Position numbers and translations under genes: made by a program. DNA of 57,661 bases. Origin: Candidatus Amesbacteria bacterium (GTDB taxonomy: Bacteria > Patescibacteriota > Microgenomatia > CAZETR01 > Amesbacteraceae). Below the pieces are notes generated by a model that worked only from the letters and a program-made list of their open reading frames with translations, made no database searches and was not told the DNA's origin. Positions 2,145 through 12,607 of the stretch are shown here, piece after piece (position 1 is the first letter of the stretch; every line of letters begins with the position of its first letter). The stretch spans positions 253,899 to 311,559 of the forward strand of contig CAVTQH010000004.1 of NCBI GenBank assembly GCA_963736875.1, written 5' to 3'.

Positions 2145-3257
2145 CTATCTCAATCCCCCCACCACTTTTACTTTCCTCAGCAAATTTTCATCCTCCAGCA
2201 CTTTTCCGCACCCCCGGACCACAGCCGTCATCGGATCATCCGTCACATACACCGGCATCCGGGTTTCGTCCGAAAAAAGTTTTTCTATCCCCGCAATCAT
2301 ACTGCCTCCGCCGCACATCATGATTCCCCGCTCCAGAATATCGGATACCAATTCCGGGGGAGTTTCTTCAATCAGATCGGCAGCGGCAGAAGTAACCTGC
2401 TTCAACACCGGCATCAGAGCTTCCCGGATTTCATCGGAAGTAATCTTTAGACTTCGCGGCAGTCCCGTTTCCAGATCCCGGCCTCTGATGACCATCATTT
2501 TTACTCCCGACTTTCTCTCCTCTTTTTCCGTCATATCCTGAACACCCGGTGTCAGACTTTGAGCACTGTGAAAGGCCGAAACGTGCGCATTTCCCAAAGC
2601 AATTTTTACTTCCTCGGCCGTTCTCTCCCCCAATAAGACGTTGTACTTAAGGCGGATGTAATGAATTATTGCCTCGTCCATTTCATCCCCGGCTATCCTG
2701 ACCGATTTATTGATGACTATTCCCCCCAGTGAAATCACCGCGATTTCACTCGTCCCACCTCCAATATCAATCACCATTACCCCTCCGGCATCGGAAATGG
2801 GTAAATTGGCACCGATCGCCGCCGCCATCGGTTCTTCGATCAGGTAGCATTTCCGGGCACCGGCCGAAAGCGCTGCCTCCTGCACCGCCCGTCTTTCCAC
2901 TTCGGTCACACCTGAAGGAATACCCACCACCACCCGGGGCCGCGGTACCCGGGGAATCATCCGGCCCGATTCATGTACCATTGATATATAGTGTTTAAGC
3001 ATTACTTCGGTCGCATCAAAATCGGCAATTACCCCGCCTTTTAACGGCCTGATGGCTTCAATAGTCGCCGGTGTCCTGCCCAGCATCTTTTTCGCCTCTT
3101 CACCGATTGCCAGTATCTGCTTGGTTTTTTTATGCCGGGCAACGACCGATGGCTCCCGGATGACAATCCCCTTGCCTTTGACATGGACCAGAGTATTAGC
3201 CGTCCCCAGGTCAATTCCCACGTCATGCGATAAGAGCCCGAATATATAGTCAAACAT
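2145..3257 (-). CDS. mreB: Rod shape-determining protein MreB
   Basis: GIDLGTANT, IREPSVVA, IEEPMAAAIGA, DIGGGTSE motifs; start moved to ATG 3257 (MFDYIFG). Confidence 0.96.
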   Translation of the reverse strand: MFDYIFGLLSHDVGIDLGTANTLVHVKGKGIVIREPSVVARHKKTKQILAIGEEAKKMLGRTPATIEAIRPLKGGVIADFDATEVMLKHYISMVHESGRMIPRVPRPRVVVGIPSGVTEVERRAVQEAALSAGARKCYLIEEPMAAAIGANLPISDAGGVMVIDIGGGTSEIAVISLGGIVINKSVRIAGDEMDEAIIHYIRLKYNVLLGERTAEEVKIALGNAHVSAFHSAQSLTPGVQDMTEKEERKSGVKMMVIRGRDLETGLPRSLKITSDEIREALMPVLKQVTSAAADLIEETPPELVSDILERGIMMCGGGSMIAGIEKLFSDETRMPVYVTDDPMTAVVRGCGKVLEDENLLRKVKVVGGLR

Positions 3258-3342
3258 CCTAAGCCGCAATATATGATTAATAACTTGATTGTGCAAGTGC
3301 TAACTCCTAACTTTTTTTGCCGACCTATAGTATAATAATCCC

Positions 3343-3981: not shown

Positions 3982-4024
3982 CATCTCTTGACAAGACCTA
4001 TAATAATAGTGTATTATGTAAGAC

Positions 4025-10528: not shown

Positions 10529-11146
10529 ATGTTGGATTTACTTTTATCCCAGCCTGCCGCTTTTGTATTGATCTTCGGTGGTCTGATTATCGCCATCGGG
10601 ATCCACGAAGCCGCTCATGCCTTCATGGCAGACTATCTGGGTGATCCTACTCCCCGATCGCTGGGCCGTACCAACCTTAATCCCCTGGTTCACCTTGATC
10701 CCCTGGGAACAATGGTGATTCTGGTTACAGGTGTCTTTGGTTGGGGTAAACCCGCCCCCTATGATCCCTTTAACCTCCGGCACCCCCGTCAGGATACCGC
10801 CCTGATCGCTCTGGCCGGGCCGGCGAGTAACATTATCCTGGCGGTTATTCTGTCAGCTGTTCTGCATTTTGTATCATTTCCACCTATTGTCTATACCATT
10901 TTTATCCGCCTCATAATTATCAACGTCTCATTGTCCGTCTTTAACCTCATGCCTGTCCCGCCTCTTGACGGTTCAAAAATCATCGGATTGTTTATGTCCA
11001 ACGAATCCGCTCTCCGGTTTCAAAATCAAAATGGCCTGATGCTTCTGGTTCTCATCCTCCTGCCTATTTTCGGAGGTTACTCCATCGCTTCCATTGTTAT
11101 TTCTCCCATTGCCACGGCAATTCTCAGGCTTCTCCTGCCGTCGTAA
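10529..11146 (+). CDS. Site-2 protease (M50) family membrane metalloprotease
   Basis: HEAAH, ALAGPASN and NLMPVPPLDG motifs. Confidence 0.93.
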   Translation: MLDLLLSQPAAFVLIFGGLIIAIGIHEAAHAFMADYLGDPTPRSLGRTNLNPLVHLDPLGTMVILVTGVFGWGKPAPYDPFNLRHPRQDTALIALAGPASNIILAVILSAVLHFVSFPPIVYTIFIRLIIINVSLSVFNLMPVPPLDGSKIIGLFMSNESALRFQNQNGLMLLVLILLPIFGGYSIASIVISPIATAILRLLLPS

Positions 11147-11160
11147 AGACATTGACAGCT

Positions 11161-11169
11161 TGGTATAAT
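11161..11169 (+). promoter_or_regulatory. Extended -10 promoter (TGn-TATAAT)
   Basis: TGGTATAAT; the predicted start at 11176 coincides with the first base of a long closing stem. Confidence 0.65.
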
Positions 11170-11175
11170 TAAATT

Positions 11176-11389
11176 GTCCTGCCGAGAGGGCAAGAACAAG
11201 GATATTTTCCTTGACTGTTTAAATCCCTTAGGGCTGGATATAAATAAGTAAAATTATATATATCCTAGGGCATAATTCTGCAAAGGTCCTAGTACCTGTG
11301 CAGACATTCCCGATTCGAAATTATTTCGGGAGAGCTCGCCCACTTAAATGAGCCTCGGGGAAAAACCTTGTCTACCCAATTGGCGGGAC
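11176..11389 (+). ncRNA. Structured non-coding RNA of unknown class (6S-like closing stem plus 4 hairpins)
   Basis: End-to-end pairing: GTCCTGCC/GGCGGGAC, GGG/CCC, ACAAGG/CCTTGT, TTTTCCTTGA/TCGGGGAAAA. Four internal hairpins. T7 tract at 11391-11397. No ORF. Confidence 0.7.
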
Positions 11390-11438
11390 ATTTTTTTCGT
11401 GTAGCGTAGATTGTTGTAAAATTACTCTGGCTACTATT

Positions 11439-11510
11439 GCCGCCTTAGCTCAGTGGCAGAGCAATTGTTTTGTAAACAATAGGTCCTCGGTCCGAATCCG
11501 AGAGGCGGCT
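11439..11510 (+). tRNA. tRNA-Thr(TGT)
   Basis: Acceptor GCCGCCT/AGGCGGC, anticodon arm ATTGT-TTTGTAA-ACAAT. Confidence 0.95.
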
Positions 11511-11557
11511 CCCAAAAACAAACACTAATTTGCAAATGGTAATATAATCTAGTTAAC

Positions 11558-12187
11558 ATGGACATTGACACGATAAAGAAGCTGTACTACAGAGAAAAAT
11601 TAGGTTCACGGGAAATCGCCACAAGGCTAAATAAAACAGTTTGGCAAATTCTCCGTTTTATGAAAAAACACCATCTCAAATGCAGAACTACCGCAGAAAC
11701 CAATAAATTTAAATTTAACAGAACTCCCCTCTCTTATAATAAAAAGGTTCATATGAACGCTCAGGAAAAACAATTATTTGAAAACGGTTTAATGCTGTAT
11801 TGGGCAGAAGGATGTAACCAAACTAATAAAGTCGTGGATATGTCAAATTCTAATCCTAAAATGGTAAAAATATTTCTAAATCTATTAACAAATGTTTATC
11901 AGGTGGATCAAAAACGTATTAGAGTGCTTCTGTATTGCTATCAAAATCAGGATATTAATAATCTCAGAAAATTCTGGTCAAATTTTTTAGACATCCCCCT
12001 GTCCCAGTTCATTAAACCGTATATCAGAAAGGACTTTGATCTCAATAAAAATACAAAAATGCCATATGGCTTGGCACACATTCGCTACGCAGATACGAGA
12101 TTACTGGCTCAAATATTCAAAGATATTGATATAATTTCAGGTAAACTTTGCCGGGATGGTGGAGTGGACAATCACACGAGTCTGTAA
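11558..12187 (+). CDS. HTH + LAGLIDADG-like endonuclease-family protein
   Basis: N-terminal HTH-like segment (SREIATRLNKTVWQILRFMKK), GLMLYWAEG helix and SNSNPKMVKIF; 3' end overlaps tRNA-Tyr. Confidence 0.7.
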   Translation: MDIDTIKKLYYREKLGSREIATRLNKTVWQILRFMKKHHLKCRTTAETNKFKFNRTPLSYNKKVHMNAQEKQLFENGLMLYWAEGCNQTNKVVDMSNSNPKMVKIFLNLLTNVYQVDQKRIRVLLYCYQNQDINNLRKFWSNFLDIPLSQFIKPYIRKDFDLNKNTKMPYGLAHIRYADTRLLAQIFKDIDIISGKLCRDGGVDNHTSL

Positions 12188-12232
12188 AACTCGCGCCTTA
12201 TGGCTACCCAGGTTCGAATCCTGGTCCCGGCA
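12150..12232 (+). tRNA. tRNA-Tyr(GTA)
   Basis: Acceptor GCCGGGA/TCCCGGC, anticodon arm CGAGT-CTGTAAA-ACTCG, long variable arm, TTCGAAT T-loop. Confidence 0.95.
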
Positions 12233-12253
12233 CAAATCTGCTACAATTACCCT

Positions 12254-12607
12254 ATGGCTTTTAAATTCCAGTCCCATGTTGTCTATGAACAGCTAAGCCT
12301 TTTTACTAAAGAAATCTTCGTTCTAACCGGCCGTCTTCCCAATTATGAAAGCAATGGTTTGATCCAGCAAATCAGAAACTTAGGGAGCGGTCTCCTTCAG
12401 GATTTTGCCCAGGGATATATCCGTACCGAGCATTCGGATCCCAAAGTCGCTTTGGATAAATGCATCATTTCCGTCGCCAAAATCGCTTCCTTAATAGATC
12501 TGAGTTGTCAGCTGGGGTATATTGATCACCCCACCCACACCAAACATATTTTATCCTGTGACGAGATTACCAAGCGCTTGTACGAAACGCAAAAATCCCA
12601 CAAGTAA
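12254..12607 (+). CDS. Four-helix-bundle protein (23S rRNA IVS/bAvd-like family)
   Basis: LPNYESNGLIQQIRNLG...FAQGY...LSCQLGYI pattern; TGCTACAAT 7 nt before ATG 12254. Confidence 0.75.
   Translation: MAFKFQSHVVYEQLSLFTKEIFVLTGRLPNYESNGLIQQIRNLGSGLLQDFAQGYIRTEHSDPKVALDKCIISVAKIASLIDLSCQLGYIDHPTHTKHILSCDEITKRLYETQKSHK

What the first reader, a model, noticed from the sequence alone, without database searches (positions are those of the whole stretch)
11161..11397. Unannotated ~214-nt highly structured RNA with its own promoter and U-tract
An extended -10 predicts +1 at G11176, the first base of an interrupted ~30-bp helix pairing the 5' and 3' ends (11176-11183/11382-11389; 11196-11201/11366-11371; 11205-11214/11355-11364). 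The helix encloses four hairpins: GGATATA/TATATCC, TCTGCA-AGGT/ACCT-TGCAGA, TCCCGA/TCGGGA and GCTC/GAGC. It contains G-U pairs and is followed by T7. I see no SRP, RNase P or tmRNA signature motifs. It may be a divergent 6S RNA or a new ncRNA class, located just upstream of a tRNA cluster.
Basis: partly seen in the sequence, partly recalled or inferred. Interest (0 to 1): 0.75.

Follow-up and report, generated by a model that had tools for sequence, protein, structure and literature searches.

The report
Divergent 6S-type RNA in a CPR bacterium
The flagged gap holds a real, abundantly expressed ~215-nt structured RNA gene, conserved in ultra-small (CPR, Microgenomates/Amesbacteria-type) bacteria, which is most likely their unrecognised version of 6S RNA, the RNA that regulates RNA polymerase by mimicking an open promoter.

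Summary
Window 11176-~11392 (+) is a stand-alone RNA gene. It has an invariant -10 box ending 6-7 nt upstream, a long end-to-end helix and a U-tract. It folds far better than shuffles (z = -6.85).

I found about 50 homologues, almost all directly downstream of the same M50 protease gene in CPR contigs. Across 36 of them, 47 of 50 modelled base pairs show compensatory changes (0 of 500 shuffles reach this).

Contigs from nine metatranscriptome runs cover only 11176-11386. One starts exactly at G11176.

The window RNA matches no Rfam family. Its simpler relatives, however, are plain rods: closing stem, central bubble, apical stem. Four of them give full-length, co-located, correct-strand matches to Rfam 6S (RF00013) at 22.7-38.4 bits (best E = 2.9e-4), below the 46.4-bit gathering score. 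They share the 6S consensus motifs on both sides of the bubble.

My verdict is a divergent, lineage-specific 6S-type RNA. Its apical stem is branched, with an extra hairpin B plus a species-specific AT-rich hairpin. RNA polymerase binding and product-RNA synthesis are inferred, not shown. The main rival is a new CPR RNA that only looks like 6S (about 25%).

The parts
10529..11146 (+). Upstream neighbour: M50 (site-2 protease family) membrane protease gene, the syntenic anchor of the RNA gene
   Evidence: Pfam PF02163, E = 8.6e-14. Homologues come from Amesbacteria, Moranbacteria and other Patescibacteria. The RNA lies directly downstream of this gene in about 50 loci.
11152..11157 (+). TTGACA hexamer only 6 nt upstream of the -10 box, too close to act as a canonical -35; role unknown
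   Evidence: The same 6-8 nt spacing recurs in many homologues. TTGAC-N6-10-TAWAAT occurs 4 times in the window against 0.37 expected.
11161..11169 (+). Extended -10 promoter element, TGgTATAAT
   Evidence: TATAAT is invariant in the 10 close homologues and ends 6-7 nt before the RNA's first base. 24 of 36 family members have a match of 5/6 or better at that position.
11176..11392 (+). The RNA gene (mature RNA about 11176 to 11390-11397)
   Evidence: Covariance-model match of 190 bits (R1) and 166.7 bits (R2), against 27.5-28.9 bits on the minus strand. A metatranscriptome contig spans 11176-11384 and starts exactly at G11176. Other RNA-run contigs lie within 11184-11386.
11176..11201 (+). Closing stem, 5' strand. 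P1a is 11176-85, the GA loop is 11186-87, P1b is 11188-90, P1c is 11193-95 and P1d is 11197-11201.
   Evidence: Pairs with 11366-11389. Helices 1-3 are 93-95% paired, and nearly all pairs show compensatory changes.
11205..11214 (+). P2 5' strand, UUUUCCUUGA: the helix just below the central bubble and the most sequence-conserved element. It is the predicted template region for product RNA.
   Evidence: Pairs with 11355-11364 (UCGGGGAAAA). Helix 6 is 92.6% paired, with 7 of 8 pairs changed on both sides. It aligns to the 6S consensus 'ccCuGAgCCgAaaau' in relatives.
11215..11230 (+). 5' side of the central bubble (CUGUUUAAAUCCCUUA, 16 nt)
   Evidence: No conserved pairing partner is visible by eye in the 36-sequence alignment; this was not counted with any tool. 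The CCC/GGG mini-hairpin of the minimum-free-energy fold is absent in L084 and L086.
11231..11234 (+). P3a 5' strand (GGGC), pairing with GCCC at 11338-11341. This is the first helix above the bubble.
   Evidence: GGG/CCC is nearly invariant in 36 sequences (helix 7). It corresponds to 'GGGag...caCCCAC' of the Rfam 6S consensus.
11236..11265 (+). AT-rich hairpin insertion (GGAUAUA...UAUAUCC), private to this species
   Evidence: Absent from all other homologues. Other lineages (L114, L123, L121, L151) carry unrelated insertions at the same site. It varies among strains in metagenomes.
11268..11271 (+). P3b 5' strand (GGGC), pairing with GCUC at 11334-11337
   Evidence: The two outer pairs were not in the model and still covary: GC 17, AU 8, GU 1; and GU 10, GC 8, AU 6, UA 3.
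11277..11304 (+). Apical hairpin A (UCUGCAAAGGU-CCUAGU-ACCUGUGCAGA), with a conserved loop, CC(U/A)(A)GU, in the close subfamily
   Evidence: Helix 9 has 10 of 10 pairs with compensatory changes. Among strains, 11280 G>A is accompanied by 11301 C>U.
11308..11331 (+). Apical hairpin B (UCCCGA...UCGGGA). It is present in the window's subfamily and a few others, and absent from the simplest relatives.
   Evidence: Helix 10 has 6 of 6 pairs with compensatory changes. It is missing (0-1 nt) in L017, L010, L028, L031 and others.
11342..11354 (+). 3' side of the central bubble (ACUUAAAUGAGCC, 13 nt)
   Evidence: Follows the invariant GCCCAC. It corresponds to 'CCCACCUggaAc' of the 6S consensus.
11355..11389 (+). 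3' strands of P2 (11355-64) and of the closing stem (11366-11389)
11391..11397 (+). U7 tract. With the long closing helix it forms a terminator-like 3' end.
   Evidence: 30 of 36 homologues have at least 5 T in an 11-nt stretch made of the last 3 nt of the model match plus the next 8 nt downstream. The simple terminator scan did not call it because the stem is too long for its rule.
11439..11512 (+). Downstream neighbour: tRNA-Thr(UGU), the first gene of the tRNA cluster
   Evidence: ARAGORN and Rfam. A tRNA follows the RNA in most homologous loci, but it is on the opposite strand in L010 and L027.

Best explanation
**What it is.** This is the ssrS-type gene of a Microgenomates/Amesbacteria-like CPR bacterium. 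It encodes a divergent 6S RNA.

**Transcription.** The RNA is transcribed from its own extended -10 promoter, starting at G11176. It ends at the U-tract after the closing helix.

**Structure, from base to tip:**
- a roughly 35-bp interrupted closing stem (P1-P2);
- a large central bubble (16 nt on the 5' side, 13 nt on the 3' side);
- an apical stem (P3a-P3b) that, in this subfamily, ends in a three-way junction with hairpins A and B;
- one extra species-specific AT-rich hairpin.

**Inferred mechanism.**
- Like other 6S RNAs, it would mimic an open promoter and occupy the active-site cleft of the housekeeping sigma-RNA polymerase holoenzyme, damping transcription when nucleotides are scarce.
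- When nucleotides return, the polymerase would use the 5' bubble and P2 strand as a template for a short product RNA. If initiation is opposite U11216, that product would begin 5'-AGUCAAGGAAAA....
- Product synthesis would unzip P2 and release the enzyme.

**Shown here:** the gene, its ends, its fold, its conservation, its expression, and its sub-threshold but specific similarity to 6S.

**Inferred only:** RNA polymerase binding, product-RNA synthesis and the physiological role.
For: 1. **Real structured RNA.** Fold z = -6.85. 36 homologues are 92.3% paired, against 68.9% in shuffles. 47 of 50 pairs and 382 cells show compensatory change, against 112 cells in shuffles (0 of 500 reach it). P3b pairs that were not in the model also covary.
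2. **Independent transcription unit.** TATAAT is invariant in the 10 close homologues. 24 of 36 have a -10 match of 5/6 or better ending 6-7 nt upstream. 30 of 36 have U-rich tails.
3. **Expression as a discrete, abundant RNA.** Contigs from nine RNA runs (soil, freshwater, sediment, estuary) cover only 11176-11386. One spans 11176-11384 at depth 22.6. Contigs from DNA runs run on into the flanks.
4. **Strong purifying selection.** Among strains the RNA body shows 4 changes, two of them a compensatory pair. The spacer 11395-11438 is full of substitutions and indels.
5. **6S architecture.** Relatives found with a model built only from the window's subfamily (L017, L010, L028, L031, L134 and others) lack hairpin B. 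They are simple rods: closing stem, bubble, apical stem, 141-170 nt.
6. **Similarity to Rfam 6S.** RF00013 is the only family that hits these RNAs. The hits are full length (model 1-187), on the same coordinates and on the same strand:
   - L134: 38.4 bits, E = 2.9e-4;
   - L017: 33.5 bits, E = 4.5e-3, or 1.6e-5 in a local search;
   - L023: 25.2 bits;
   - L142: 22.7 bits.

   There were no minus-strand 6S hits, so rod shape alone does not explain them. The alignment matches the 6S consensus motifs on both sides of the bubble: CCgAaaau, GGGAg and caCCCACCUggaA.
7. **Alternative hairpin.** 20 of 36 members can form a stable hairpin (5-7 bp) between the 3' bubble and the 3' strand of P2. The arm sequences differ between members (CCUGG/CCAGG, CCUUG/CAAGG, CCUAG/CUAGG, CUUGUG/CACAGG). 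This is the rearrangement known to release 6S after product-RNA synthesis. The mirror segment on the 5' side does so in only 6 of 36 by z (9 of 36 by energy).
8. **Other housekeeping RNAs are excluded.** There are no SRP, RNase P or tmRNA hits.
Against: - The window RNA itself gives no 6S hit even at E <= 10.
- No family member reaches the 6S gathering score of 46.4 bits.
- The family model R2 aligns E. coli ssrS end to end, but at only 0.9 bits.
- The window's apical domain is a three-way junction plus an inserted hairpin, not the single irregular stem of canonical 6S.
- The window RNA and most of its nearest relatives lack the alternative 3' hairpin (energy 0.0 kcal/mol).
- Other control segments of the rod also self-fold, so that test is only suggestive.
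- Covariation alignments were fitted to the model, which favours the modelled pairs.
- Earlier unchecked notes report several other '6S-like' RNA families in CPR, and another conserved small RNA in this same genome. This RNA may therefore not be the only candidate.
- There is no biochemical evidence of any kind.
Confidence: 0.64

Rival explanations
1. It is a new CPR-specific housekeeping or regulatory RNA that only resembles 6S in shape. It would be the RNA part of a different ribonucleoprotein. Its partner would recognise the invariant single-stranded motifs (GACUAUUU, GCUCGCCCACUU) and the conserved hairpin-A loop (CCUAGU).
For: - No Rfam family reaches threshold.
- E. coli 6S is not recognised by the family model.
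- The apical domain is branched and carries a very conserved loop.
- The window subfamily lacks the alternative 3' hairpin.
- No literature on a CPR 6S RNA was found.
- Earlier unchecked notes describe several uncatalogued 6S-like CPR RNAs.
Against: - Four members hit 6S specifically. The hits are full length, on the correct strand, and match the consensus sequence motifs on both bubble flanks.
- The simplest members have exactly the 6S layout and size.
- Sequence conservation peaks where 6S would be templating product RNA.
Confidence: 0.27
2. It is a cis-acting leader or processing scaffold of the downstream tRNA operon. It would be co-transcribed with tRNA-Thr and tRNA-Tyr and cut off by RNase P or RNase E, with no function of its own.
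For: - A tRNA gene follows within 20-110 nt in most loci with a downstream + strand tRNA.
- Some homologues lack a clear U-tract, for example L001, L089 and L017.
Against: - In L010 and L027 the neighbouring tRNAs are on the opposite strand. In L122 the RNA itself is inverted relative to the M50 gene.
- Most members have a U-rich tail right after the closing helix.
- RNA-run contigs stop at about 11386 and never bridge to the tRNA.
- The spacer to the tRNA is unconserved.
- A mere leader would not keep about 190 nt under such strong sequence and structure constraint.
Confidence: 0.05
3. It is a DNA-level feature: a palindromic mobile element (MITE or REP-like), or simply the terminator of the M50 gene.
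For: - There is a long inverted repeat.
- The minus strand also folds well (z = -5.0).
- Reverse-strand model hits of 20-39 bits occur.
Against: - It is single-copy in the window and fixed at one syntenic site.
- G-U pairs make the + strand clearly better: -84.5 against -74.6 kcal/mol, and 166.7 against 27.5 bits.
- It has its own conserved promoter.
- It is expressed as a discrete RNA.
- Loops and bubbles are conserved in sequence.
Confidence: 0.01

Closest known systems
6S RNA (SsrS), Rfam RF00013; E. coli ssrS and B. subtilis 6S-1/6S-2 as reference members
   Same: - Size of 150-220 nt.
- Its own strong promoter and a stable, abundant transcript.
- A long interrupted closing stem, a large central bubble (16/13 nt) and an apical stem.
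- Relatives match the 6S consensus motifs on both sides of the bubble: CCgAaaau, GGGAg and caCCCACCUggaA.
- Many relatives can form the alternative 3' hairpin that is used for release after product-RNA synthesis.
   Different: - All scores are below the Rfam gathering score. The window RNA gets no hit at all.
- The apical stem is branched into hairpins A and B, and carries a species-specific 30-nt hairpin between P3a and P3b.
- The window subfamily lacks the alternative 3' hairpin.
- The gene sits between an M50 protease gene and a tRNA cluster, not next to a 5-formyl-THF cyclo-ligase gene as in E. coli.
- RNA polymerase binding is untested.
Ms1 RNA of mycobacteria (a 6S-like RNA that binds RNA polymerase core). 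This comparison is from my own knowledge and was not tested here.
   Same: A rod-like, abundant RNA that was first taken for 6S on structural grounds and lies outside the 6S covariance model.
   Different: Ms1 is about 300 nt, is restricted to Actinobacteria and binds core polymerase rather than holoenzyme.
Other uncatalogued '6S-like' small RNAs of Patescibacteria noted earlier in this scan (for example the pilB-ruvB spacer RNAs)
   Same: CPR-specific, strongly promoted RNAs of 170-220 nt closed by a long terminal helix, with no Rfam family above threshold.
   Different: - Those sit at another locus (pilB-ruvB) and are described as four-way junctions or cloverleaves that fail 6S tests.
- A sequence look-up found no earlier finding sharing words with this RNA.
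- This family does give specific sub-threshold 6S matches.

Membership tests
6S RNA (Rfam RF00013) | Scores at or above the curated gathering score (46.4 bits) of the 6S covariance model | tested here: not met
   The window gives no 6S hit at E <= 10. The best family members score 38.4 bits (L134), 33.5 (L017), 25.2 (L023) and 22.7 (L142). These hits are full length, co-located and on the correct strand, but all are below 46.4 bits.
6S RNA (Rfam RF00013) | Long closing stem formed by the 5' and 3' ends, then a large central bubble with both sides unpaired | tested here: met
   P1-P2 (11176-11214 / 11355-11389) is supported by covariation. The bubble is 11215-11230 / 11342-11354. No conserved pairing is visible there by eye in the 36 sequences; this was not counted.
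6S RNA (Rfam RF00013) | A single, unbranched apical (terminal) stem above the bubble | tested here: not met
   The window RNA has P3a-P3b followed by a three-way junction (hairpins A and B) and an inserted hairpin. The feature is met in distant family members that lack hairpin B.
6S RNA (Rfam RF00013) | Conserved sequence flanking the bubble, as in the Rfam consensus (ccCuGAgCCgAaaau ... GGGag ... caCCCACCUggaAc ... GGuUCaAggg) | tested here: inconclusive
   L017 matches well: CCUCACCGAAAAU, GGGAGGGC and CUCACCCACCUGGAAU. The window has related but diverged versions: CCUUGACUGUUUAAAU, GGGCU..GGGC and CUCGCCCACUUAAAU.
6S RNA (Rfam RF00013) | Independent, abundant and stable transcript of about 150-220 nt | tested here: met
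   The -10 box and U-tail are conserved. Contigs from nine RNA runs are confined to 11176-11386, at depths up to 22.6. Contig depth is only a rough measure of abundance.
6S RNA (Rfam RF00013) | Potential for the alternative hairpin in the 3' bubble and stem strand that forms after product-RNA synthesis | tested here: inconclusive
   It is present in 20 of 36 family members with differing arm sequences. It is absent from the window RNA (energy 0.0 kcal/mol) and from most of its nearest relatives. The controls are mixed.
6S RNA (Rfam RF00013) | Binds the housekeeping sigma-RNA polymerase holoenzyme and serves as template for product RNA | not testable with these tools
   This needs biochemistry or small-RNA sequencing. 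Only assembled contigs of the runs were available.
SRP RNA (RF00169 / RF01854) | Match to the SRP covariance models | tested here: not met
   No SRP hit at E <= 10 in 11050-11520.
RNase P RNA (RF00010 / RF00011) and tmRNA (RF00023) | Match to the RNase P or tmRNA covariance models, or a tmRNA call by ARAGORN | tested here: not met
   No Rfam hit. ARAGORN finds only tRNAs. Earlier unchecked notes place RNase P and tmRNA candidates elsewhere in this genome.

The most novel reading that the evidence does not exclude
The RNA is not a 6S RNA. It would be the RNA core of a previously undescribed, abundant ribonucleoprotein specific to Microgenomates-type CPR bacteria. In that case its invariant bubble sequences and the hairpin-A loop would be recognised by a partner other than RNA polymerase.

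A milder version: it is a 6S RNA whose branched apical domain and missing 3' collapse hairpin point to a different way of docking to, or being released from, the CPR polymerase.
Probability: 0.27. Interest if true: 0.75.

Novelty: new variant of a known kind. Interest (0 to 1): 0.5.

Why it matters
- **Regulation in CPR bacteria.** These bacteria make up a large share of bacterial diversity, have tiny genomes, and have almost no characterised regulators. Neither Rfam nor the open literature I could search describes a 6S RNA for them.
- **A global transcription brake in a minimal genome.** If this family is their 6S RNA, a global brake on RNA polymerase has been kept even in these very small genomes.
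- **Abundance in the environment.** The RNA appears among the transcripts assembled from soil, sediment, freshwater and estuary metatranscriptomes.
- **Annotation.** The family gives pipelines a model for an RNA they currently miss.
- **How much variation the fold tolerates.** The branched apical stem and the recurrent insertion site between P3a and P3b show how far the 6S scaffold can vary.
- **If it is not 6S.** It would then be a new housekeeping RNA, which would be the more interesting outcome.

Tried and rejected
- I could not count copies in the genome, look for a second 6S gene, or check SRP and RNase P genes in the genome.
- **Weak Rfam hits rejected.** In a permissive Rfam scan of 11050-11520, the best non-tRNA hits were RsaD (E = 0.37), SNORA81 and YrlA. 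I rejected them as chance: scores are low, the alignments are poor and the taxa are wrong.
- **Promoter and terminator scan.** It found no sigma-70 promoter, because no -35 lies at 16-18 nt. It missed the terminator because the stem is too long for its rule. The promoter call rests on conservation instead.
- **Reciprocal test.** Model R2 against E. coli ssrS gave a full-length alignment but only 0.9 bits, which is not significant.
- **No 6S or family hit in some loci.** An Rfam scan of 13 other CPR loci (Gottesmanbacteria, Pacebacteria and others) found no 6S there. These loci also lack a family hit, apart from one weak R2 match in L012 (3391-3549, 22.5 bits), so synteny is not universal.
- **SRP, RNase P, tmRNA and raiA-type RNAs.** I considered these and rejected them for lack of any hit.
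- **MITE or terminator.** Rejected on strand asymmetry, single copy, promoter and expression.
- **Alternative-hairpin test.** It is suggestive only, because some control segments of the rod also self-fold. For example, the 5' strands of P1d and P2 can pair with each other.
- **Literature.** Searches for 6S RNA together with CPR, Patescibacteria, Saccharibacteria or Microgenomates returned nothing relevant.
Full report
**1. The observation**

The stretch lies in a 292-nt gap between an M50 protease gene (10529-11146; Pfam PF02163) and tRNA-Thr(UGU) (11439-11512). No ORF of 30 aa or more lies on the + strand there.

- An extended -10, TGgTATAAT, at 11161-11169, which places +1 at G11176.
- A long interrupted helix joining the two ends.
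- Internal hairpins.
- A T7 tract at 11391-11397.

As RNA, the + strand folds to -84.5 kcal/mol (z = -6.85; 0 of 200 shuffles as good). The minus strand is weaker, at -74.6 kcal/mol (z = -5.0), as expected when G-U pairs are used.

**2. No known family claims the window RNA**

- Rfam 15 at gathering thresholds finds only the four tRNAs of the window.
- A permissive scan of 11050-11520 gives nothing better than E = 0.37 (RsaD, spurious). There is no 6S, SRP, RNase P, tmRNA or raiA hit.
- ARAGORN finds no tmRNA.

**3. Organism and homologues**

- The M50 protein's relatives come from Amesbacteria, Moranbacteria and other Patescibacteria. Earlier notes of this scan call the genome Candidatus Amesbacteria.
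- I fetched loci around M50 homologues from genome contigs, metagenome contigs and exact-protein look-ups.
- A profile search with nhmmer found the RNA directly downstream of M50 in five lineages.
- In a six-way alignment, TATAAT is invariant and ends 6 nt before the conserved 5' end GUCCUGCC. A U-rich tail follows the conserved 3' end GGCGGGAC.
- A covariance model built from these six sequences (R1) found weaker matches at the same syntenic position in many more Microgenomates and Patescibacteria loci.
- A second model built from 23 sequences (R2) raised the family to about 50 members. It found none in the non-CPR loci L032-L080.
- Forward-strand scores always far exceed reverse-strand scores. 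For the window they are 166.7 against 27.5 bits.

**4. Structure**

On 36 sequences aligned to R2:

| Measure | Observed | Controls |
|---|---|---|
| Cells forming standard pairs | 92.3% | 68.9% in column shuffles; 39-56% when partners are slid by 1-3 columns |
| Pairs with changes on both sides | 47 of 50 | mean 32.4 in shuffles; 0 of 500 reach 47 |
| Cells with compensatory change | 382 | 112 ± 10 (0 of 500 shuffles reach it) |

The alignment is fitted to the model, which favours the modelled pairs. However, two pairs I added afterwards (P3b) were not in the model and still covary: GC 17, AU 8, GU 1; and GU 10, GC 8, AU 6, UA 3.

Anatomy in window coordinates:

| Element | Coordinates |
|---|---|
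| P1a | 11176-85 / 11380-89 |
| P1b | 11188-90 / 11375-77 |
| P1c | 11193-95 / 11371-73 |
| P1d | 11197-201 / 11366-70 |
| P2 | 11205-14 / 11355-64 |
| 5' bubble | 11215-30 |
| P3a | 11231-34 / 11338-41 |
| Inserted AT-rich hairpin | 11236-65 |
| P3b | 11268-71 / 11334-37 |
| Hairpin A | 11277-11304 |
| Hairpin B | 11308-31 |
| 3' bubble | 11342-54 |
| U7 tract | 11391-97 |

- The AT-rich hairpin is private to this species. Other lineages carry unrelated insertions at exactly the same site.
- The GCTC/GAGC hairpin is not conserved. GCUC is the 3' strand of P3b.
- The CCC/GGG mini-hairpin of the minimum-free-energy fold is not conserved.

**5. Expression and selection**

- Many public metagenome runs hold near-identical copies.
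- In DNA runs the contigs run on into the flanks.
- In nine RNA runs (soil, freshwater, sediment, estuary; several studies) the contigs lie entirely within 11176-11386. One 210-nt contig at depth 22.6 spans 11176-11384 and so begins at the predicted +1.
- Among strains the RNA body shows very few changes. One pair, 11280 G>A with 11301 C>U, keeps a base pair of hairpin A. The spacer 11395-11438 is riddled with substitutions and indels.
- Contig depth is a poor measure of abundance, and DNA carry-over cannot be fully excluded. The confinement to the gene in every RNA run argues for a discrete, abundant transcript.

**6. What it is**

The distant relatives lack hairpin B. They are plain rods of 141-170 nt: closing stem, central bubble of about 15/12 nt, then a single irregular apical stem. 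That is the architecture of 6S RNA.

Rfam's 6S model (RF00013) is the only family that hits these RNAs. Each hit is a full-length alignment (model 1-187) on the same coordinates and strand as my own model's match:

| Locus | Coordinates | Bits | E-value |
|---|---|---|---|
| L134 | 2122-2272 | 38.4 | 2.9e-4 |
| L017 | 3181-3329 | 33.5 | 4.5e-3 (1.6e-5 in a local search) |
| L023 | 2055-2217 | 25.2 | 0.42 |
| L142 | 1172-1324 | 22.7 | 1.5 |

- No minus-strand 6S hits appeared, so generic rod shape does not explain them.
- The L017 alignment matches the sequence-conserved parts of the 6S consensus on both flanks of the bubble: CCgAaaau, GGGAg and caCCCACCUggaA.
- The window RNA carries diverged versions of the same motifs: CCUUGACUGUUUAAAU, GGGC and GCCCACUUAAAU.
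- The link from the window RNA to these relatives rests on two things. R1 was built only from the window's subfamily and still finds them (for example L017 at E = 2.5e-6). They also sit at the same position, immediately after the M50 gene and usually just before a tRNA gene.

One further 6S-like trait concerns the 3' bubble. In 20 of 36 members the 3' bubble can pair with the 3' strand of P2 to form a stable 5-7-bp hairpin, and the arm sequences differ between members. This is the kind of rearrangement that releases 6S from polymerase after product-RNA synthesis. The mirror segment on the 5' side does so in only 6 of 36 by z (9 of 36 by energy).

Against the 6S reading:
- The window RNA and most of its closest relatives lack this alternative hairpin.
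- Other control segments of the rod also self-fold.
- All 6S scores are below the 46.4-bit gathering score.
- R2 does not significantly recognise E. coli ssrS (0.9 bits).

**7. Mechanism**

My best explanation (about 0.64) is a lineage-specific 6S RNA. It would mimic an open promoter, bind the housekeeping holoenzyme, and be released when the polymerase copies the 5' bubble and P2 strand into a short product RNA. That product is predicted to start 5'-AGUCAAGGAAAA... if initiation is opposite U11216.

- Shown here: the gene, its ends, fold, conservation, expression and 6S-like signatures.
- Inferred only: binding, templating and physiology.

Rivals:
- A new CPR RNA that only looks like 6S (about 0.27).
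- A tRNA-operon leader (about 0.05). Against it: in L010 and L027 the nearby tRNAs are on the other strand, in L122 the RNA is inverted relative to M50, most members have U-tails, and RNA contigs never bridge to the tRNA.
- A DNA palindrome or mobile element (about 0.01).

**8. Novelty**

I found no paper linking 6S RNA with CPR, Patescibacteria, Saccharibacteria or Microgenomates. Rfam does not capture the family.

Earlier notes of this scan describe other uncatalogued 6S-like RNAs in CPR, mostly at a pilB-ruvB locus and with other folds. A sequence look-up found none sharing words with this RNA. Those notes are unchecked leads.

I classify the finding as a new variant of a known kind: a 6S-type RNA with a branched apical domain and a recurrent insertion site.

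**9. Limits**

I could not count copies in the genome or look for a second 6S gene.
- Only assembled contigs of the runs were available, not reads. Strand, exact 3' end and product RNAs therefore could not be examined.

Noticed in passing
window 11152-11169, and homologous promoters in L081, L090, L093, L089, L017, L134, L010 and L031: A TTGACA-like hexamer sits only 6-8 nt upstream of the -10 box, not 17 nt, in many family members. Members with a weaker -10 instead have TTGACA at 15-18 nt. TTGAC-N6-10-TAWAAT occurs 4 times in the window against 0.37 expected (also at 3988, 15984 and 32927). This may be a lineage-specific promoter layout or a regulator site.
   Followed up: partly
window 11558-12187 (+), overlapping tRNA-Tyr at 12150-12233: A 209-aa ORF with no Pfam hit fills the spacer between tRNA-Thr and tRNA-Tyr and runs into the tRNA-Tyr gene. 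In the Amesbacteria relative L001 the two tRNAs are only 26 nt apart (2822-2895 and 2922-3004).
   Followed up: partly
alignment A7 between P3a and P3b (window 11235-11267; also L114, L123, L121, L151): The 5' strand between P3a and P3b is a recurrent insertion site. At least five lineages carry unrelated extra hairpins of 10-37 nt at exactly this position.
   Followed up: partly
window 11197-11213, and the same region in homologues: The 5' strands of P1d and P2 are complementary to each other (CAAGGA / UCCUUG). The rod could therefore switch to a local 5' hairpin. 24 of 36 members show this (mean z = -3.2). Its meaning is unknown.
   Followed up: partly
L086 and L087, 2109-3089 (-): In this Amesbacteria-type lineage a minus-strand gene of about 290-330 aa is called between the M50 gene and the RNA. 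The RNA lies about 900 nt downstream of M50 instead of about 30 nt. The gene call overlaps the RNA's promoter and first about 70 nt in L086, but ends before the RNA in L087 (2109-2972).
   Followed up: no
run X29, contig laid on window 11199-11220 and 11285-11311: A sediment metatranscriptome holds a more divergent relative of the RNA. In it the 64 nt between these two conserved blocks are replaced by 33 other letters. This shows expressed family members without the AT-rich hairpin.
   Followed up: no
window 12200-12607 (+): A gene for a '23S rRNA intervening-sequence protein' family member (PF05635, E = 1.4e-8) follows the tRNA-Tyr gene. The same family sits downstream of the tRNAs in L081.
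   Followed up: no
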